A stretch of 64,000 bases of DNA from Trypanosoma brucei. Taxonomy: Eukaryota. Positions 34,000 through 60,879 of this stretch are shown here, one piece after another. Made by a program: the position numbers and the translations under genes. A model generated the notes under the pieces. That model was given only the letters and a program-made list of their open reading frames with translations, made no database searches and was not told the DNA's origin. The DNA lies in assembly GCA_000002445.1 (NCBI GenBank), contig CP000071.1, forward strand, positions 2,016,001 through 2,080,000, given 5' to 3'. The first letter of the stretch is position 1, and every line of letters begins with the position of its first letter.

Positions 34000-35962
34000 T
34001 CCCTCTTTTTTGTTTTTTTTTTTCTTGTCCTTCTTCTTCCTTTTTTTTCCCCCATCTTTTTTCCCTCTTTCATTTCTTCTTTCAGTTTTGTGGCATTTGG
34101 TGTGTAATGATTGGAACGTTGGAACACAAGACGAGTTGAAATGACAAGAAAATATGTCTTTAGTTTTAGCCCCATTTCCCCTCAGTAAAAAAAAAAAAGT
34201 CTATCAAAAGCAGCGTTACCGGTGGATGAGAGGTGCTTTCTTTTTCTTTTTTTTCTTTTTTTCTTTTCTTTCTTTTTTTTTCTTTTTTTTTTTTTACTGG
34301 AAACACAAGGGTAATAATTAGCAAAAAAAAAAAAGATGACAAATAATATTGGAAACATTTGTTTTAAATGTATACATGACCAGAATTTTCTTCTGTTTTT
34401 TTTTCTTTTTACCGCGTGCCCTTATGCATGGAAATGGGAAATTACCAATTACACTTACTGCACACATGTTAATCGGATAAAGGAAGGGTTGAGGAAAAGA
34501 AACAAATAAATAGCACTCGAGCGAAAGAGAAAAAGTAAAATAAAATAAAATAAAATAGAAAGAAAATAAATAAATAAAAGAGATGCAAGAATTAAAATGA
34601 AAACGATAATAACACTTACAGTTCCGATGAAACGGAGGGAATGTATAATAAATAGCGAAAACAAAAGATGAGGGGACAAAAAGTAATGTTACAGATTACA
34701 AATCAAACATTACTTGAAGGATGAGGAAAATTTGTTGTTGTTGTTTTTGTTGTTTCGCATTGCTGGAAGAAGAGGGGAAAAAAAGCAATGGGAAATTAGA
34801 AAGTAGGAATGAAATGAAATGAAATGAAATGAAATAAAAGCAAAAGGGAAACCGTATACGTGTTTAACCGGTGTATTTCAAGGGATTTAACAAGGAGCAA
34901 AATTACATCCATAAAAGAAAACGGACAAACAAATCATAAGGAATAGGGGAAAAGAAAAAAGGAAGAAGAAAAAAGAAAAAGGAAGCAGCATTTAACGGAT
35001 TAATGCTTACATTCATATTTATATATATTTATTTCTTTTTTTTTTTTGATGTTGGGTTGGGTGACTGTATTTCCTTAATTTTCTTCTTTTTTTTTTTGTT
35101 TGTTTGGACAAAACCCATCAGGTTATATGCTCAGTACTGCTACCGTCATTACACTGGTGGTTTCTTTTGTTTCTTGTCTCATTTTCACTCAACCCCCGAT
35201 GTTCCATATTTCACCTTTTGTTGTTTTTGCTGCTGTTTTGTTTTTTTTTTCCTTCTTTTTTTTAAAAAAATTTTATCTTACCTTATCTTATCTTATCTTT
35301 TTTTCTCTTTATTTGACTTGTCTTATTTATGCTTATTTGCTGCGACTGTTTCTTGTTTGTTTTGTTTTGCATTTTTTTTTTCACCTCTTTATTCTTCTTT
35401 AGCAGGCGTTGTTTATTATTTCATTTGGTCTCATTCCTAAGCGTATAACTTGTGCATGTGTGTAGAGGCGTGGCGGACAATCTTTTTCTCTTTTTTTTTT
35501 CTTATTATTCTGTGTTGTATTTTCACTGTTGTTTTATATCTTCTTGTTTATTAATGAATTTGACTAGATGGGGGAAATAAACCGAAACTTATGAATGAAT
35601 AAATGGAGTGAATTTCCCAACAACGACGAAAGCGATCATGTAAATATATTTGTGCACTTGTATGTAAAAAAATAAATAAATAAATAATAATAATAATAGT
35701 ATATATAAAAGGGAGGAGAAAAGGAAACAATTGTTGTATTTATATTGCTTCCTCAACATGAGAAGGAGGTGTTGACTGAAAAAAATTCCAAAAATAAAAA
35801 TAAAAAGATAAAATAAAATAGAAGAGGGAAGTGTGCAATGGTAAAGGGTGTAAAGGGAAAATAGCGATAGAAAGTCGTAGTGTTCGGTGCCACCGTAATT
35901 CTCCTTTTGCTTATTTGCTTTTTAATTTTTACTTTTTACTTTTTTGACTTGTTTTGTTTTGT

Positions 35963-36011
<49 letters not shown>

Positions 36012-38808: not shown

Positions 38809-40482
38809 AAAAGTCCTCGTGTAAATACACTTACGTGACCAAATATATTTGTTTCACTATTTATTTGGTGTCGATTTTTCCAATGTTGTATATATATATA
38901 TTTATATATATATAGCATGTGTTCGTTCGGTCCCCACCCCATCTCCTTGCTTTTTTTATATTATATTCTATTTTTTTTATTTTTTTCTCTTTTAATCGTG
39001 TTTTGAAACCTCCCACTGCTGGAGAATTGTGCGTTTCTCGACCAATTCGGGGGAAGAAACGAAATAAAGAAGAATTATATAAATATATATATATATATAT
39101 AAAGTGAGATTTTGTGGGTATAACTTGGATATGGATTGTTCAAAAGAATCTGATAGACGGAAGACACTCGCAAAATGACCTCAGTGAAAGTGAACGTGCC
39201 TTACTGTATGTTAGTAAAGAGGGAAACGTAAAGTAGAATTTGAAGTCGAGGAAGAAAAAAGTGAAGAGGCAATGAGTGTGCTAAAAAGAGAGGAAAAGAG
39301 AAGGAGAGTTTAGTTGAGGTAATGATTTTTGTACGGTCGTTAACTTTTATATATTTTACCTTTTTTATTATTATTATTATTTTTTTTTTGTTTACTCTCC
39401 TGGCGCCTCTGTATGTGCTTACTTACCTATTACCCTTTTTGTGTTTACATTCTCCGATTTTCCTAGCGGAGAAAAAAGTGCTTCAACCAAAGGAAGAGAG
39501 AAAGCACGGCACCAAAGCAAAAAGGAAGAAATGAGAGGGAAAAAAATGTAGTAATTGTTTGAAGTTAAGAAAAAAGAAAGTTTCAAGGTGCGTTGCGGTG
39601 CCTCAACTTTACCGGGTGGTTGAAAGGGAATAGCGCCTTTTTCTTTTTTTTTTTTGTTTGTGGCTCTCTTTTTCCAGACCATTTGTTAGAAACGGAAACA
39701 GTAGGTACAGTCCTGCTATTTTTTTTTTCATTGTGTTGATGTGGTTTTCCTTATTTCATTCCACTAACTCCCAACACTCTCCATCCTGGTCCAAATGAGA
39801 AGAACAAGGTGTCGAAAGCATTTTTTTAAAAAAAAACTACTATCAAGCGAAACTATTGCAACTGTTTCTGTCCCACTTTATTAATCCAATCCCATTTTAT
39901 GTTTTAGTATACGGTTAGGATCAATATCATGTGGTGTCGTGATGGGGAATCTGTGCGTTCTCATACCCGTAAAACTGAGATGGTGACGGATAGAACAGAA
40001 AATTTGTATTAAGAACCGATACGCAAGCTTTTTTGTACTCTCCACTGCGGCTAAAAAGAGACGCCAGAACAGTCTCGTCGGAACTTGGGATACGAACTTT
40101 CCTTCTGATCGTGTATTATTACCCATGTTGTTCTTGTTCTTATCCTTCTCGCTGCCGTCGCGTAAGCGTTGCGTTTGAAGGGACGGAATTTTCTTGTCAT
40201 TTGGAATCATGCGATTTAATGGCGGAGGTTGTTGGTGACTTCATATGTATTCGCTATGAATGACTGCATGTGGTTTATGCATCTCCATGTCACTCACATA
40301 GTGCCTGAGTAGATGCTCCATCACCGCATTTCGCCGGCACGAAATGACGGCAATAGCGTAATGTGGTAATCGCCGTTGCACCTTTACCTCTGGAATGTAA
40401 CCCGTTCCCCTAACACATCCGTCTTTGTTGCTGTCCCTCATGTTTTTTTTCTCCACGATGTCCTTTAGATTAGGGCAGCTTT

Positions 40483-56491: not shown

Positions 56492-58444
56492 ATGAAAAAC
56501 AACGACGCTAACCATATGCGCAAGCGGTCGCGCGAGGATCCAACGAATGCAGAAGCTGCGGAGTTTTCCGAAGACCAGGGGGTGGGCGGCCAGCAAACAG
56601 AGGTAAAAGGGACAAAATCCAGCTCAACGTCGAGGGTATCCCCTGAAATACCAGATGAGAGCGCGTGTATATACGAATACGTGAGTGGGCCAACTGCTGT
56701 TAGTACCAGCGGTGGCAACAGTGGAAATAGCCCTGGAAGCACTCACCCGTCTGAACGTAAGTTAAAGCAGGCGACGCTACCTTCCTATGGATTGGTAAAC
56801 GACACTGCGGTATTCCGCAAAGAGCTTGCTGATAGAGACGCACAGATCGATGAGCTTCGCGAGAAACTGGCAGCCGTGGAGACGCGGATGTCCGAAAGGG
56901 AGACAACTCTTGTCAACACGCAGGCACAACTACAGGAGGCTGTCGATCGCAACAATCGCTACCAGGTTGTTCTTCGTGAGGAAATGTTGAGAGCGGCCCG
57001 TCAAGAGAGATGCGATGCCAGACGTGCCTTACATTTGAAGCAATTTGAGCTTGGACAGATAGCAGTGTGGCATAGTAACGGGCGCGAGGTGTGGGTCGAA
57101 GGCAACAAAATGAGGCAGCTCACCATGCAGCTTGAGGAGCTTAGTGTACGCCGTGATGAAGTGGAGGAGCTCAAAAAAACGGCTGAAAAGCGGGCGCGGC
57201 AGATACTGAGGAGCAACGACGAGGACTCGATGGCACCGGAAGCCCAAGCGGCACTGATGGAGTTGCAGGAGGCAGCTCTGCTGTACACAGCAGAGTTTGC
57301 AGCCTTGGGTAGCGCCATCCAGTCGCTAAAACAGCAGCAACAAGACTTAAATCACGAGAAAAAAGTGTTTCTTAAGGAGATCCGTCGCGTAAATGACGAA
57401 GATGCATCTGCCTTCGTGGCTGTGCCGGCTCTCGGTCACAATGGTCGATATGTAATGATGCATCTGCTCGGCAAAGGAGGCTTCTCTGAGGTGTGGAAAG
57501 CCTTTGACTTGCAGGAGGCGCGGTACGTTGCGTGCAAAATCCATCGCGTACAGAGGGAATGGTCACAACAGGTGCGACAACACTACCGGGACCGTGCAGT
57601 TCGTGAGCTAAAAATTATGCGAATGCTGGAACACCCGCACCTTACACGGCTCTTCGATGCCTTCGACCACGGCACGGCAACGTTCGTATCGGTCATGGAA
57701 TTTAGCGCGGGGACCGATCTTGACACGCATCTGAAGCGTTGTGGCACCCTCCGTGAGGTGGAGGCGCGGTTAATAATTATGCAAGTAGTCAGTGCGTTGC
57801 GCTATTTCGCAGCACAGCATCAACCGGTCATCCACTACGACCTTAAACCGGCGAATATTCTTCTCCATTCTAGTAACCAAAGCAGTTTGCTAATCAAAAT
57901 AACGGACTTTGGTCTCAGTAAGCTCATCCCGAAGCGAGACGGGGCAAGCGACAACCCAACCATAGAACTGACGTCACAGGGGGCGGGAACATATTGGTAT
58001 CTTCCGCCCGAGTGCTTCGATACCACAGCAACTCCTCGGATCAGTAACAAAGTTGACGTGTGGTCGTGCGGTGTTATATTCTATCAGATGCTATTTGGTC
58101 GCCGTCCATTCGCCGAGGGCGAGTCACAGCAACAAATATGGCAAAACAAACTCATTGTTTCTTCTGCACACACCTTAACGTTTCCCGACACCCCGCGTGT
58201 CTCGCAGGAGGCAAAAGATTTAATACAAAAGTGCCTCGAATACCACCCTGCGGACCGCTACGACGTGATGCAACTCAGTCAGGACCCGTACCTGCAGCGC
58301 AATACACGGAGGCTCTCACGCACCGAAAGGACACTCCCCGCAGCAACCCAGAATTCCTCAACAACAGTGGTGACGACTGCTGCGGCTGCCTCTGGGGTAA
58401 CGCTGACAGGCTCCGTTGAGGAGAAGTTAAGTAACATCCCCTGA
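56492..58444 (+). CDS. TLK: Tousled-like kinase (TLK), 650 aa
   Basis: The N-terminal coiled-coil region (about 300 aa) is followed by a kinase domain with TLK-specific context: 'HLLGKGGFSEVWKAFDL', 'YVACKIHRVQREWSQ' (the 'W' insert typical of TLKs), 'HYDLKPANILL', 'ITDFGLSK', 'GTYWYLPPECF'. Confidence 0.8.
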   Translation: MKNNDANHMRKRSREDPTNAEAAEFSEDQGVGGQQTEVKGTKSSSTSRVSPEIPDESACIYEYVSGPTAVSTSGGNSGNSPGSTHPSERKLKQATLPSYGLVNDTAVFRKELADRDAQIDELREKLAAVETRMSERETTLVNTQAQLQEAVDRNNRYQVVLREEMLRAARQERCDARRALHLKQFELGQIAVWHSNGREVWVEGNKMRQLTMQLEELSVRRDEVEELKKTAEKRARQILRSNDEDSMAPEAQAALMELQEAALLYTAEFAALGSAIQSLKQQQQDLNHEKKVFLKEIRRVNDEDASAFVAVPALGHNGRYVMMHLLGKGGFSEVWKAFDLQEARYVACKIHRVQREWSQQVRQHYRDRAVRELKIMRMLEHPHLTRLFDAFDHGTATFVSVMEFSAGTDLDTHLKRCGTLREVEARLIIMQVVSALRYFAAQHQPVIHYDLKPANILLHSSNQSSLLIKITDFGLSKLIPKRDGASDNPTIELTSQGAGTYWYLPPECFDTTATPRISNKVDVWSCGVIFYQMLFGRRPFAEGESQQQIWQNKLIVSSAHTLTFPDTPRVSQEAKDLIQKCLEYHPADRYDVMQLSQDPYLQRNTRRLSRTERTLPAATQNSSTTVVTTAAAASGVTLTGSVEEKLSNIP

Positions 58445-59359
58445 ACAGCATGGGTATTTCATCCACTTCACTTGGCGGAACTCAAAAACAGTGAGTTGTA
58501 CAGTTGGAAGCTAGGGCTTCGGAAATAGCGGTAAAAAGGGAAACCAGGAGTGCACATTGGAACAGGGCGCAAAAAGGGGGGAAAGTAAATAGGGGAGGCA
58601 ATGGAGGGTTAAACGTAAGTGAATCGGCACAATGAACACTTGTTGTATTTGCCACGCTCGCGTACACTCCTCCTCCATGCGTTTGGTACGGTATTGAATT
58701 GTCTTAATTATTGCACTTTTATAGAATGAGGTGAAGGGGTGTTCTGCACTCCAAAGTTTCCTCTTCCAGACGTGGAAAGTGGTGTCTCCGCTTCCGCCAG
58801 TGCTTTTTTTTTTTCTTGCCATCACTGATCTGTAGGTGATGCAGAGTATCCCACCCACGTGCGGCACGGACTCGACCAAACTCTGCAAATTGACAATCTT
58901 TATGCTTGTAATGTGGCACCTTCTACCCCGAGCTCCGGGTGCTGCCTGTGTCACAGATAAATGTACCTTTGCTGACAAGTGAATGAACCAAAGGGATGAC
59001 ATAACCACTGTGAACCCCTTTTCCTTCCTTTATTAAGCTGCCGCGTTGCGGTTGAATGCCTTCATTGACTGTAGGGTGCACCAGATTCATGTCGTGAAAA
59101 CATGAAGGGATGTGCGAGCAGTGTTTTCGGACTGCTGAAGCGACGACTCGTTTATACCACTGGTTCGATGTTGATGCTCCTAACAGTGCCATTCCGCGGC
59201 TCGGGGAGGAGAGATCTCAAAAAACTGCTGGAGCCACTGCTAACGACTGGGACCTAATATGGGTTTACAAGCGATGGACAACCTTTACAAGAGCCAGTGC
59301 CCAGCAGCGTGTCGCAGTGATCTGTTAATCCTCCCCTCCCTTCCCCTCCTGGCAGTAAT

Positions 59360-59505
59360 AAGAGCTGCGACTTCAGGGATTGGCGGATGCTAAAGGTGAG
59401 GGTGGATGTGGTGCCCCAATTGCTGCACTCACTTCAGGGTTATTGCTGATGGTTTTTACGGGGAGGGGAAGTTCCATCACCGACACATCCGCCAATCCCT
59501 GAAGT
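59360..59505. other. perfect 20-bp inverted repeat (potential long hairpin) with a 106-nt loop
   Basis: 'acttcagggattggcggatg' at 59360-59379 is the exact reverse complement of 'catccgccaatccctgaagt' at 59486-59505. It lies in the TLK-to-membrane-protein intergenic region, just downstream of a poly-Y/AG at about 59322-59353. Confidence 0.8.
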
Positions 59506-60054
59506 GGTAGCAGATGTTGGCTCACAGGGATGCCATGCAGCGAGAGAAAATGGGGGTTGGGACGACAATACGGAATTGGGGGCAAAGCCCTGTGGTTGGT
59601 GGGTGAGAAAAAAAAATTGAAGGAGTTGTTCGGCGGTCGCGGTGCAAAGGCGAGGTGGAAATAGCTGAAAAGGTAGCGCGTGATGGGTGAAGCCCTGAAG
59701 ATGGGAAGAACAGTGGCCAGATTCTCCGCGAGTCCAGCTGAAGGGGCGCCGGTCGTTGTGACTGTGGGTCTTTCTTCATTATTCCAGCTAGTTTTCTTTT
59801 ATACGCGCTCATAAGCAATATTTTCTTCTTGCCGGTCATCTACTACTTTTTATTATAGCTGGGAACGAACGTTTGTGCTGTGGTAACGGAAAACTAGACA
59901 GTTGAGAGTTGTCGGGAAGCGCAAGTGCAGTAAGGAAAGTGGAGAGAAGAAACACAGCAAGAGACAGCAGCAAGTCCATCAGCTTTGCTTGAGCGACACA
60001 TATACAAACGGCTGTAGAGCTTTCATCACAGACTGCAAACAAAGGACCCGACGT

Positions 60055-60879
60055 ATGGAGCTTTCGTTCCCCTTTCTGCTGTCAACCGTCGTGCTTATCG
60101 TGTTCTACACGGTGGACTTCTTCTTCGCGCGGCTTCTCAACGTACTCAAGCAAGATCATCTCGAGTTGGATGAGTGCTCCCCAGAAGAGTCACCCGATTT
60201 GGATCCTGCCTTTGTTGTAGGTTCCCTGAAGCAGGTAGCGGTGGAAATGTTAGAATACCAACGGCGGCGCTTCCACATGGGCGAAACGGGGGTCCCTTCA
60301 ACGGCTGCCGACTCTGACCCGGTGCCGTCAGCCACGGTAGACTTTTGTAACCTGCCGACTGCAGCCTCATCTCATCCTTCAGAAAATGTGGTGCACGTTG
60401 TGGTGATCATATGTGGTTTGGTTGGCCCTTTCGCTACTGTTTGCCAGGCGCTGTTTCCAAACGCATTTGGCTGGTGCCGCTTCAACTTCGCTTATTTCGT
60501 ACAGTACATTGGAGCCTTCTCAGGTGTTGCCTCCGTCTCCGTATACACCGGGCGGGTGTGGCATTGCTCCTCCTACAGTGAAGTCAGTCGCAAGCAGTGG
60601 CTGGAGCTCATGTGGTTTCGTCTTGACTTCATGTGTCTGATGTCTGTGGCAGCTTTCTTTGGTGCTGGTTCGTGGGTGGTGACTATTTGTTTACTTGCTA
60701 TCGGTTTTTACTTGGCCTACCGCGTGATGCGCATTGAGAAGTGGATGCAATCGCTGCAAGTGGAAACACAGTTAGTTCGTGGGGAGGTTGACGTTGACCG
60801 TGTTTACGTACCAGGGACGGTGGAGGCCGCTAAGGCGCTCGGCACTTCTGAGAAGCAGGGGTACAATGCGGTTGTTTAA
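60055..60879 (+). CDS. small multi-pass membrane protein (about 274 aa)
   Basis: The ORF track starts at a TTG at 59902. The ATG at 60055 gives 'MELSFPFLLSTVVLIVFYTV'. At least four hydrophobic helices are present, including 'VVHVVVIICGLVGPFATV', 'FAYFVQYIGAFSGVASVSVY' and 'FMCLMSVAAFFGAGSWVVTICLLAIGFYLAY'. Confidence 0.5.
   Translation: MELSFPFLLSTVVLIVFYTVDFFFARLLNVLKQDHLELDECSPEESPDLDPAFVVGSLKQVAVEMLEYQRRRFHMGETGVPSTAADSDPVPSATVDFCNLPTAASSHPSENVVHVVVIICGLVGPFATVCQALFPNAFGWCRFNFAYFVQYIGAFSGVASVSVYTGRVWHCSSYSEVSRKQWLELMWFRLDFMCLMSVAAFFGAGSWVVTICLLAIGFYLAYRVMRIEKWMQSLQVETQLVRGEVDVDRVYVPGTVEAAKALGTSEKQGYNAVV

What the first reader, a model, noticed from the sequence alone, without database searches (positions are those of the whole stretch)
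59322..59505. Perfect 20-bp inverted repeat forming a potential 20-bp-stem, 106-nt-loop hairpin just after a poly-Y/AG site
Arms at 59360-59379 and 59486-59505 are exact reverse complements: 'acttcagggattggcggatg' and 'catccgccaatccctgaagt'. A chance 20-mer inverted match within a few hundred bp of a 64 kb window is vanishingly unlikely.

The structure sits immediately downstream of a strong polypyrimidine tract ending in AG ('cctcccctcccttcccctcctggcag', about 59322-59353). That tract lies about 700 nt upstream of the next start codon at 60055, and a second poly-Y tract lies nearer that ATG.

Possibilities:
- an alternative SL site producing a long structured 5'UTR that carries the hairpin, which would be translational or stability control
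- a small structured RNA or siRNA precursor
- a remnant of a small inverted-repeat element

The loop also contains a third partial copy of the arm core, 'cacttcaggg' at about 59434-59443.
Basis: seen in the sequence. Interest (0 to 1): 0.55.

Follow-up and report, generated by a model that had tools for sequence, protein, structure and literature searches.

The report
Young hairpin inside decayed gene relic
The perfect 20-bp inverted repeat is real, but it lies in the decayed remains of a duplicated mitochondrial ribosomal-protein L7/L12 gene on Trypanosoma brucei chromosome 8, a stretch that now belongs to the long 3' untranslated region of the TLK2 kinase mRNA. It most likely arose by a local replication or repair error that copied the opposite strand, and nothing shows it is a regulatory device.

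Summary
The repeat exists, with corrected coordinates: arms 59370-59389 and 59486-59505, spacer 96 nt. As RNA it extends to 25 of 26 pairs (59364-59511). It is the only complex inverted repeat of 14 nt or more in the window, and shuffles give none of 16 nt or more.

The window is T. brucei TREU927 chromosome 8, positions 2,016,001-2,080,000.

- **Where it sits.** The TLK2 to Tb927.8.7230 spacer is not plain intergenic DNA. Positions 59076-59667 are the wreck of a mitochondrial L7/L12 gene. That gene is intact at the same position on the chromosome 4 duplicon and in T. congolense and T. vivax.
- **Origin of the arms.** The left arm is old L12 coding sequence. The right arm is a derived inverted copy found in no functional L12 gene. 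This is the pattern expected of a template-switch mutation.
- **Age.** The repeat is present in four T. brucei-group genomes, but only TREU927 has 20/20; the others have a U·G pair.
- **Transcript.** Published RNA-seq puts the TLK2 transcript 3' end at window 59735. The hairpin is therefore in the TLK2 long 3'UTR or its internal non-coding transcript, not in the next gene's 5'UTR.

No evidence of constraint, of small RNAs or of a mobile element was found. This is an ordinary though instructive feature, and a selected function is unlikely.

The parts
59364..59389 (+). Left arm of the inverted repeat (perfect core 59370-59389). It is the ancestral arm and derives from L7/L12 coding sequence (codons for ...MLQGLA... 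in the chr4 paralog).
   Evidence: Searches give the coordinates. In one search, 15 of 19 aligned bases are identical to chr4 L12 CDS positions L001:3181-3199, and the 14-mer CTTCAGGGATTGGC is identical. One search shows T. congolense CTGCAGGGCTTCGG at the same place.
59390..59485 (+). The 96-nt spacer (the 'loop'). It is itself partly folded, and it is collinear with the chr4 L12 coding sequence.
59486..59511 (+). Right arm (perfect core 59486-59505). It is the derived arm: an inverted copy of the left arm that replaces ancestral sequence of the type GTNAAGAAAGTCGT.
   Evidence: In one search only 8 of 16 aligned bases match chr4. One search gives the four-way alignment. In one search the functional L12 genes have no inverted copy (best 11-12 of 20, which is background).
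59430..59439 (+). Third partial copy, CACTTCAGGG. It is direct relative to the left arm and is a 10/10 complement of 59497-59506. It includes a 5-nt chr8-specific insertion.
   Evidence: direct repeat D1, inverted repeat I2; 5-nt insertion at 59434.
59329..59355 (+). Polypyrimidine tract followed by AG. It is partly made of short chr8-specific insertions relative to the intact L12 genes. It is a candidate internal trans-splice acceptor, but its use is not shown.
   Evidence: One search shows a 14-column gap in chr4, T. congolense and T. vivax. One search places 5-nt and 3-nt insertions at 59325 and 59343.
59076..59667 (+). Decayed relic (pseudogene) of a mitochondrial ribosomal protein L7/L12 gene. 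This is the copy lost from the chr8 duplicon.
   Evidence: In one search, local alignment of chr8 58888-59850 against L001:2744-3717 scores 581, against 218±27 for shuffles (z = 13.5). One search gives 65.6% identity over 544 nt, 36 indels of which 23 shift the frame, ATG changed to GTG, and the stop codon deleted. In one search there is no + strand ORF of 80 aa or more. Searches show an intact PF00542 gene at this position on chr4 and in T. congolense and T. vivax.
58445..59735 (+). Long 3'UTR of TLK2 (Tb927.8.7220) as mapped by RNA-seq. It belongs to the 'alt 3UTR' class, which also yields a shorter TLK2 mRNA and a putative non-coding SL/poly(A) transcript from inside the UTR.
   Evidence: Kolev et al. 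2010, Table S3 and main text. The coordinate offset of 2,016,000 was verified on three ORFs.
56492..58444 (+). TLK2 (tousled-like kinase 2, Tb927.8.7220) coding sequence.
   Evidence: (exact match to XP_847551.1).
59769..59858 (+). Second polypyrimidine region with AG at 59857-58. It is the likely spliced-leader acceptor of Tb927.8.7230 and lies 34-120 nt downstream of the mapped TLK2 3' end.
   Evidence: tracts 59769-59777, 59792-59800 and 59821-59830. Its use as an acceptor is inferred from the known coupling of polyadenylation to the downstream trans-splice signal.
60055..60879 (+). Tb927.8.7230, a 274-aa conserved transmembrane protein and the downstream gene.
   Evidence: (P0001, 100% identity, TREU927).
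59494..59494 (+). Polymorphic stem position. It is A in TREU927 (U-A pair, giving 20/20) and G in T. b. gambiense DAL972, T. b. equiperdum and T. equiperdum OVI. G gives a U·G wobble in + strand RNA and an A·C mismatch on the - strand.
59485..59485 (+). A>G singleton in T. equiperdum OVI, next to the right arm. It creates a C59390:G59485 pair, one extra base pair.

Best explanation
The window is T. brucei brucei TREU927 chromosome 8, inside the chr4/chr8 segmental duplication.

**History of the locus.**
- The ancestral gene order was TLK, then mitochondrial ribosomal protein L7/L12, then a 274-aa membrane protein.
- On chr8 the redundant L12 copy died and has drifted to about 66% identity with its chr4 paralog.
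- Its remains (59076-59667) were absorbed into the 3' untranslated region of the upstream TLK2 mRNA, whose mapped 3' end is at 59735.

**Origin of the repeat (inferred).**
- Inside this neutrally decaying sequence, a stretch of about 20 nt of old coding sequence (the left arm) was copied in reverse-complement orientation about 116 nt downstream, overwriting the ancestral bases there (the right arm).
- The likely mechanism is a single template-switch or snap-back event during replication or microhomology-mediated repair.
- The event happened after the duplication and before the diversification of today's T. brucei lineages.

**Consequence.** Every + strand transcript that spans it will fold into a 25-pair stem. 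These are the polycistronic precursor, the long TLK2 mRNA, and possibly the UTR-internal non-coding RNA.

**Function.** The most likely status is a selectively neutral mutational by-product with no dedicated function.

**What is shown and what is inferred.**
- Shown: the repeat, its statistical excess, the pseudogene homology, the ancestral or derived status of each arm, its presence in four genomes, and (from the literature) its transcript membership.
- Inferred: the template-switch mechanism and the lack of function.
For: **Identity of the window.** The window proteins match TREU927 proteins exactly. Three ORFs from the chr8 v4 coordinates of Kolev et al. fall exactly on intact window ORFs with an offset of 2,016,000.

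**Dead gene.**
- chr4 (L001), T. congolense (L005) and T. vivax (L007) all carry a PF00542 Ribosomal_L12 gene between TLK and the 274-aa gene.
- chr8 aligns collinearly to it with z = 13.5.
- Identity is 65.6%, with 23 frameshifting indels, ATG changed to GTG, and stops in all frames.
- This is close to the 70% third-codon identity of the neighbouring paralog pair.
- The duplication is specific to T. brucei, and about half of the duplicated genes were lost (PMC2212663).

**Polarity of the arms.**
- The left arm matches chr4 at 15 of 19 aligned bases, including an identical 14-mer. The right arm matches at 8 of 16.
- Intact L12 genes show only background inverted matches, 11-12 of 20.

**No insertion.** The hairpin spans 136 nt on chr8 against 128 nt on chr4.

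**Age.** The repeat is present at 99.2-99.6% identity in DAL972, T. b. equiperdum and T. equiperdum OVI.

**No special constraint.** Variable sites are 13.5 per kb in the relic, and the same in the 148-nt hairpin (2 sites). The rest of the UTR has 15.8 per kb.

**Transcript.** TLK2 is listed as 'alt 3UTR' with its 3' end at 2,075,735.

**Stem stability.** The stem persists in the full UTR fold with pair probability about 1.0.

**Mechanism precedent.** Template switching creates perfect stems in one event (PMC8794818, PMC10710096).
Against: - The arms are far more alike (0-1 difference in 20) than the age of the relic would predict. The event is therefore either recent or the pairing is being maintained, by repeated templated correction or by selection. 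These could not be separated.
- Both variable sites in the hairpin (59485 and 59494) are compatible with, or improve, pairing in + strand RNA. This is what a selected RNA stem would show, but n = 2, and 59494 cannot be polarised because a haplotype switch lies beside it.
- The left-arm 14-mer is unusually well preserved for a relic at 66% identity. About 0.4 such runs would be expected in the relic by my own estimate.
- The template-switch event itself is reconstructed from a diverged paralog, not from a true ancestor.
- No small-RNA or read-level data could be consulted.
Confidence: 0.7

Rival explanations
1. The hairpin is a selected cis-acting element of the TLK2 long 3'UTR, or of the UTR-internal non-coding transcript. 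It would set the stability, processing-site choice or translation of that isoform, for example by binding a dsRNA-binding protein or by occluding the adjacent polypyrimidine/AG signal.
For: - It lies in an experimentally mapped 3'UTR of the 'alt 3UTR' class.
- The stem forms with probability about 1 in the full UTR fold.
- It starts 9-15 nt after a strong polyY/AG tract.
- Both polymorphisms keep or extend + strand pairing: U-A to U·G at 59494, and a new C:G pair at 59485.
- The arms are much better preserved than the surrounding relic.
Against: - The element sits in a pseudogene relic that otherwise drifts at about the neutral rate.
- SNP density in the hairpin equals that of its flanks.
- There are no compensatory double changes.
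- The structure is absent from the paralogous TLK1 locus, and by construction from all outgroups, so there is no deep conservation to appeal to.
- A young template-switch product looks the same without any selection.
Confidence: 0.15
2. The hairpin is a Dicer substrate, either a newborn miRNA-like or endo-siRNA precursor. Because the right arm is antisense to L12 coding sequence, the small RNAs could act on the functional chr4 L7/L12 mRNA (a pseudogene-derived siRNA), or in cis on the TLK2 long isoform.
For: - T. brucei has an active RNAi pathway, and inverted repeats and two pseudogenes produce siRNAs (PMC3447711). Pseudogene-derived siRNAs are also reported in PMC3683921.
- The stem length of 25-26 bp matches the 22-25 nt siRNA size given.
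- The right-arm RNA can pair with the chr4 L12 mRNA over 15 contiguous bp, with dG -38.7 against -28.7±2.9 for shuffles.
- Template-switch hairpins are a documented source of new miRNAs in primates (PMC10710096).
Against: - The siRNA-producing inverted repeats found genome-wide have arms of 422 bp to 10 kb. The only chr8 one is at 1.05 Mb, not here.
- This locus is absent from the supplementary tables searched.
- Two deep small-RNA surveys found no miRNAs in T. brucei.
- The loop is 96 nt, unlike canonical precursors.
- Rfam gives only sub-threshold plant MIR hits (23 bits against a gathering score of 85).
- Complementarity to the L12 mRNA is 14-15 nt, too short for slicing.
Confidence: 0.05
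3. Alternative spliced-leader addition at the AG of 59354-55 yields an mRNA for Tb927.8.7230 with a 5'UTR of about 700 nt that carries the hairpin.
For: There is a strong polyY/AG tract 15 nt upstream of the perfect left-arm core. TLK2's 3'UTR is known to contain an internal processing site with SL reads.
Against: - A transcript 3' end is mapped at 59735, between the hairpin and the ATG, and directly upstream of a second, longer polyY region.
- Kolev et al. describe the products of this class as a full-length mRNA, a shorter ORF-containing mRNA and a non-coding UTR-internal transcript. They do not describe a long-5'UTR form of the next gene.
Confidence: 0.04
4. The repeat is the terminal inverted repeat of a MITE-like or other dispersed element remnant.
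For: Only the geometry supports this: two inverted arms about 100 nt apart.
Against: - There is no insertion relative to the chr4 paralog (136 against 128 nt, collinear through both arms and the spacer).
- The left arm is ancestral coding sequence shared with chr4 and T. congolense.
- No flanking target-site duplication is seen.
- There are no other copies in the 64 kb window or in any fetched locus.
Confidence: 0.02

Closest known systems
Template-switch mutation (TSM) hairpins; quasi-palindrome templated mutation (Mönttinen & Löytynoja 2022, PMC8794818; Mönttinen et al. 2023, PMC10710096)
   Same: - A perfect reverse-complement copy of a nearby segment appears in one lineage.
- The source arm matches the ancestor, and the copy replaces unrelated ancestral bases.
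- The result is a perfect stem in transcribed, non-coding sequence.
   Different: - The host is a kinetoplastid.
- The spacer is long, at 96 nt.
- The 'ancestor' is only approximated by a diverged paralog and two outgroup genes, so the four switch points cannot be fixed.
- In trypanosomes, microhomology-mediated end joining with snap-back synthesis is an equally possible route. This last point rests on my own knowledge and was not tested.
UTR-internal non-coding transcripts of 'alt 3UTR' genes in T. brucei (Kolev et al. 2010, PMC2936537)
   Same: Tb927.8.7220 is listed in this class, and the hairpin lies within the listed 3'UTR span.
   Different: The paper gives no origin for such UTRs. Here the distal UTR is shown to be a dead paralog of L7/L12. 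This may explain why internal SL and poly(A) signals exist there, but that link is an inference.
siRNA-producing long inverted repeats and pseudogenes of T. brucei (Tschudi et al. 2012, PMC3447711; Zheng et al. 2013, PMC3683921)
   Same: It is an inverted repeat in Pol II-transcribed sequence of an RNAi-competent organism, and it is located in a pseudogene.
   Different: The arms are 20-26 nt, against 422 bp to 10 kb. It is not among the reported loci, and no small-RNA evidence exists for it.
Gene loss after the chr4/chr8 segmental duplication (Jackson 2007, PMC2212663)
   Same: One duplicate of a housekeeping gene has been lost, with a remodelled non-coding region between retained paralogs (pair 14, TLK1/TLK2).
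   Different: The paper speaks of gene loss and deleted duplicates. Here the lost copy is still recognisable at the DNA level as a 592-nt relic.

Membership tests
Template-switch-generated inverted repeat | The derived segment is the exact reverse complement of a nearby segment. | tested here: met
   20 of 20, at 59370-59389 and 59486-59505.
Template-switch-generated inverted repeat | The inverted repeat is absent from the ancestral state (outgroups and paralog). | tested here: met
   chr4, T. congolense and T. vivax L12 genes give best inverted matches of 11-12 of 20, equal to background. See also the alignment.
Template-switch-generated inverted repeat | The source arm is conserved with the ancestor, and the target arm shows a cluster of differences explained by one event. 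| tested here: met
   The left arm is 15 of 19 identical to chr4 and the right arm 8 of 16. The background identity of 66% makes the cluster less sharp than in published cases.
Template-switch-generated inverted repeat | The four switch points are resolved against a reconstructed direct ancestor. | not testable with these tools
   No closer outgroup carries the chr8 relic. The duplication is specific to T. brucei.
Unprocessed (duplicated) pseudogene | Syntenic homology to a functional paralog or ortholog. | tested here: met
   the same flanking genes, and a collinear alignment with z = 13.5.
Unprocessed (duplicated) pseudogene | Disabling mutations are present. | tested here: met
   ATG changed to GTG, 23 frameshifting indels, 9-12 stops per frame in the surrounding 59001-59760 stretch, and no + strand ORF of 80 aa or more.
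MITE / dispersed inverted-repeat element | An insertion relative to an empty homologous site, with a target-site duplication. | tested here: not met
   The region is collinear with chr4, 136 against 128 nt, and there is no flanking direct repeat.
MITE / dispersed inverted-repeat element | Multiple copies are present genome-wide. | not testable with these tools
   No T. brucei whole-genome DNA search is available. There are only two hits (the arms) in the 64 kb window and none in the chr4 locus.
miRNA precursor | A hairpin with an imperfect stem of about 22-35 bp and a short apical loop. | tested here: not met
   The stem is 25 of 26 bp but the loop is 96 nt. The Rfam MIR hits are far below their gathering scores.
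miRNA precursor | Discrete Dicer-dependent small RNAs come from the arms. | not testable with these tools
   No read data were available. The literature reports no miRNAs in T. brucei.
T. brucei endo-siRNA long inverted repeats (Tschudi 2012) | Near-identical arms of hundreds of bp to kb that yield DCL-dependent siRNAs. | tested here: not met
   The arms are 20-26 nt. The locus is not among IR1-IR7, and chr8 IR5 is at 1.048-1.060 Mb whereas this locus is at 2.075 Mb.
Kolev 'alt 3UTR' transcripts | The gene is listed with internal SL and poly(A) processing within its 3'UTR, and the feature lies inside the mapped span. | tested here: met
   Table S3 has a row for Tb927.8.7220 with span 2,072,442-2,075,735. 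The hairpin is at 2,075,364-2,075,511.
Known structured RNA families (Rfam 15) | A match at the family's gathering score. | tested here: not met
   No hits in the window at gathering thresholds. In an E-value search of 58500-60200 the only hits overlapping the hairpin were chance hits, MIR842 (E = 0.13) and MIR1858 (E = 1.4).

The most novel reading that the evidence does not exclude
The hairpin is a newborn, lineage-specific RNAi trigger, made in one step by template switching inside a transcribed pseudogene. Dicer would cut the 25-bp stem of the TLK2 long 3'UTR or its internal ncRNA. This would destabilise that isoform in cis and release a small RNA, antisense to L12 coding sequence, that can touch the functional chr4 mitochondrial L7/L12 mRNA. 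If so, it would be a kinetoplastid example of de novo small-RNA gene birth and of cross-talk between a pseudogene and its parent gene.
Probability: 0.04. Interest if true: 0.6.

Novelty: new member of a known kind. Interest (0 to 1): 0.25.

Why it matters
- **Re-reading of the locus.** What looked like a locus-specific regulatory hairpin in an intergenic spacer is a mutational footprint in a dead gene.
- **Annotation.** The TLK2 to Tb927.8.7230 spacer contains a recognisable L7/L12 pseudogene relic. No protein accession lies between TLK2 and Tb927.8.7230 in TREU927, and in DAL972 the only call there is an antisense ORF that is probably spurious. The relic now serves as 3'UTR, which gives a concrete origin for one of the 394 'alt 3UTR' genes.
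- **Mechanism.** It is a clean, datable example, outside animals and bacteria, of how a perfect RNA stem can appear in one step in transcribed neutral sequence. The host organism has RNAi but no known miRNAs.
- **Practical caution.** Perfect short inverted repeats in trypanosome spacers should be checked against paralogous or lost genes before any regulatory role is proposed.

Tried and rejected
- **Rfam.** The gathering-threshold search of the whole window found nothing. The permissive E-value search of 58500-60200 gave only sub-threshold plant MIR and snoRNA noise.
- **tblastn of the chr4 L12 protein against the spacer.** The only hit was a 13-aa match at E = 0.7, on the minus strand, which is the right arm read backwards. 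The relic is too decayed for detection at the protein level.
- **blastn at word size 7.** It found no significant hit across the hairpin. Homology needed a Smith-Waterman alignment with a shuffle control.
- **A first global alignment.** Its end-gap settings were inverted, so its indel list was discarded. One search replaces it.
- **Exact-protein look-ups for the TREU927 gene.** These found no record. Other T. brucei-group genomes were reached through cluster members instead.
- **Supplements.** Nilsson et al. 2010 and Siegel et al. 2010 held nothing for this locus. The full splice-site and poly(A) tables of Kolev et al. are truncated in the held copy, so the internal splice and poly(A) sites could not be placed.
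- **'Two independent palindrome-perfecting mutations'.** I considered this and rejected it. The SNP pattern switches haplotype grouping between 59270 and 59494, so A/G at 59494 cannot be polarised. Only the OVI change at 59485 is clearly derived.
- **A second templated event.** The 10-nt complement between the polyY tract (59340-59349) and the loop (59462-59471) was considered as evidence for one. It is left open because both segments are low-complexity.
Full report
**Observation**

The right arm is at 59486-59505, and the spacer is therefore 96 nt. The complementarity extends to 26 nt, 59364-59389 with 59486-59511, at 92% as DNA. As RNA this is 25 pairs, one of them G·U, plus one G·G mismatch. 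The polypyrimidine string ending in AG is at 59330-59355, the third partial copy CACTTCAGGG is at 59430-59439, and the ATG is at 60055.

Chance does not produce this.
- The 20-mer with up to 3 mismatches occurs only at these two sites, and none of 100 shuffles had two matches.
- It is the only non-low-complexity perfect inverted repeat of 14 nt or more within 400 nt in the whole 64 kb window. Block shuffles gave a mean of 0.06 at 14 nt and none at 16 or 20 nt.
- The 191-nt segment folds at -86.5 kcal/mol (z = -5.1) on the + strand and -74.7 kcal/mol (z = -5.3) on the - strand.

**Where we are**

The flanking ORFs are a tousled-like kinase (56492-58444) and a 274-aa membrane protein (60055-60879). 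Both match T. brucei brucei TREU927 chromosome 8 proteins exactly: Tb927.8.7220 (TLK2) and its downstream neighbour. Chr8 v4 coordinates published by Kolev et al. 2010 for three genes fall exactly on intact window ORFs with an offset of 2,016,000. The window is therefore chr8 2,016,001-2,080,000. All genes here are on the + strand, so the region is inside one polycistronic unit.

**The 'intergenic' spacer is a dead gene**

- The closest non-identical homolog of the 274-aa protein is the T. b. gambiense chr4 paralog, at 82% identity. Its locus (L001) has a 213-aa PF00542 Ribosomal_L12 gene between TLK1 and the 274-aa gene.
- T. congolense and T. vivax show the same order, TLK then L12 then the 274-aa gene. 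That order is therefore ancestral.
- Jackson 2007 showed that chr4 and chr8 are partial duplicons. The duplication is specific to T. brucei, and only 47% of the genes were kept in two copies (PMC2212663).
- On chr8 no + strand ORF of 80 aa or more exists in the spacer.
- Even so, chr8 58888-59850 aligns collinearly with L001:2744-3717. The Smith-Waterman score is 581, against 218±27 for dinucleotide shuffles (z = 13.5).
- Restricted to the L12 coding sequence, chr8 59076-59667 is 65.6% identical over 544 positions. It has 36 indels, of which 23 shift the frame. The start codon is now GTG and the stop codon is deleted.
- This divergence is close to the 70% third-codon identity of the neighbouring retained paralog pair, as expected for near-neutral decay since the duplication.
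- Protein-level search and word-based blastn no longer detect the relic.

**Which arm is old**

- In the pairwise and four-way alignments the left arm sits on the L12 codons for ...MLQGLA.... Of 19 aligned bases, 15 are identical to chr4, including the 14-mer CTTCAGGGATTGGC, and T. congolense has CTGCAGGGCTTCGG at the same place.
- The right arm replaces ancestral sequence of the type GTN-AAG-AAA-GTC-GTN-GAG and matches chr4 at only 8 of 16 aligned bases.
- None of the three intact L12 genes has an inverted copy of the homologous 20-mer. The best match is 11-12 of 20, which equals the background for any 20-mer in those genes.
- The whole hairpin is collinear with chr4 (136 against 128 nt). Nothing was inserted, and there is no flanking target-site duplication.

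The repeat was therefore born on chr8, after the duplication, when the left-arm sequence was written in reverse complement over a site about 116 nt downstream. This is the signature of a template-switch mutation, which creates perfect stems in a single event (PMC8794818, PMC10710096). Snap-back synthesis during microhomology-mediated repair would leave the same footprint. That alternative is my inference and was not tested.

**Age and variation**

- The 261-nt region is 99.2-99.6% identical in T. b. gambiense DAL972 chr8, T. b. equiperdum and T. equiperdum OVI. The repeat therefore predates the diversification of these lineages.
- Only TREU927 has the perfect 20/20. The other three carry G at 59494, which gives a U·G wobble in + strand RNA and an A·C mismatch on the other strand. 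OVI also has A>G at 59485, which adds a C:G pair.
- Variable-site density is 13.5 per kb in the relic and the same in the hairpin (2 sites in 148 nt). The rest of the UTR has 15.8 per kb. There is thus no sign of special constraint.
- Both hairpin variants are pairing-compatible. However, n = 2, and 59494 cannot be polarised, because the haplotype grouping of the four genomes switches between 59270 and 59494.
- The near-identity of the arms in a relic that is 34% diverged means one of two things. Either the event is recent relative to the duplication, or the pairing is maintained by templated correction or by selection. I could not separate these.

**Which RNA carries it**

- Kolev et al. 2010, Table S3, list Tb927.8.7220 with ORF 2,072,492-2,074,444, transcript ends at 2,072,442 and 2,075,735, and class 'alt 3UTR'.
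- In window coordinates the transcript 3' end is at 59735. This is 224 nt beyond the hairpin and 34 nt before the second polypyrimidine region (59769-59830, AG at 59857), which presumably serves Tb927.8.7230.
- The hairpin is therefore in the long TLK2 3'UTR (58445-59735). It may also be in the internal non-coding RNA, whose 5' end could be at the AG after any of several polyY tracts. The candidate AGs are at 58768, 58834, 59036 and 59354. The exact site could not be retrieved.
- In a fold of the entire 1291-nt UTR, the 20 core pairs have a mean probability of 0.998.
- This places the hairpin in a real, mature transcript.

**Function**

- No Rfam family matches.
- T. brucei's endogenous siRNA-producing inverted repeats have arms of 422 bp to 10 kb, and none is at this locus. 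Two deep small-RNA surveys found no miRNAs.
- The right-arm RNA is antisense to the functional L12 mRNA over 15 contiguous bp (dG -38.7 against -28.7±2.9 for shuffles). This follows from homology and is too short for slicing.

My best estimate is that the hairpin is a neutral by-product (about 0.7). There are smaller chances that it modulates the TLK2 long isoform or ncRNA (about 0.15) or feeds the RNAi pathway (about 0.05).

**Verdict**

This is a young, template-switch-type inverted repeat inside the relic of a lost L7/L12 paralog that has become TLK2 3'UTR. It is a new example of a known kind of event, and it is of modest interest. Its use is mainly for annotation (an L12 pseudogene relic that is not annotated as a gene in the records seen here) and as a datable case of one-step stem birth in a trypanosome.

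Noticed in passing
window 59522-59839 (- strand); L002:3468-3785: A 105-aa minus-strand ORF is called as a gene in T. b. gambiense DAL972. It lies antisense inside the L12 relic and the mapped TLK2 3'UTR of a + strand polycistron, so it is probably a spurious gene call.
   Followed up: partly
window 59270-59494: The SNP grouping among the four T. brucei-group genomes switches here. Before it, TREU927 and OVI stand against gambiense and T. b. equiperdum. After it, TREU927 stands alone against the other three. This suggests a recombination or haplotype breakpoint right beside the hairpin.
   Followed up: partly
window 59329-59350 and 59461-59471: The polyY tract contains short chr8-specific insertions relative to all intact L12 genes. 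It has a 10-nt perfect complement (GGAGGGGAAG) in the hairpin loop, interleaved with the main stem. This could be a second templated event or a pseudoknot, but both segments are low-complexity.
   Followed up: partly
window 34001-36000 and 38886-39102: G+C drops sharply to 0.30 at 34-36 kb. There are (TA)n-type low-complexity inverted repeats and palindromes near 38.9-39.1 kb, next to Tb927.8.7120.
   Followed up: no
window 60055-60879 vs L001:4001-4825: The 274-aa membrane-protein paralogs are only 84% identical at the DNA level (82% at the protein level). The flanking TLK pair is 92% identical, and the 374-aa gene region about 94% by blastn. This is a fast-evolving retained duplicate.
   Followed up: no
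L006 vs L007 (T. vivax): One T. vivax assembly (GCA_021307395.1) has no gene call for L12 between TLK and the 278-aa gene, while the other (GCA_019425475.1) has it at L007:2975-3616. This is probably an annotation gap.
   Followed up: no
window 56442: The published TLK2 transcript 5' end (chr8 2,072,442) does not directly follow an AG dinucleotide in the window sequence. The Table S3 end coordinates may therefore be approximate by a few nucleotides.
   Followed up: no
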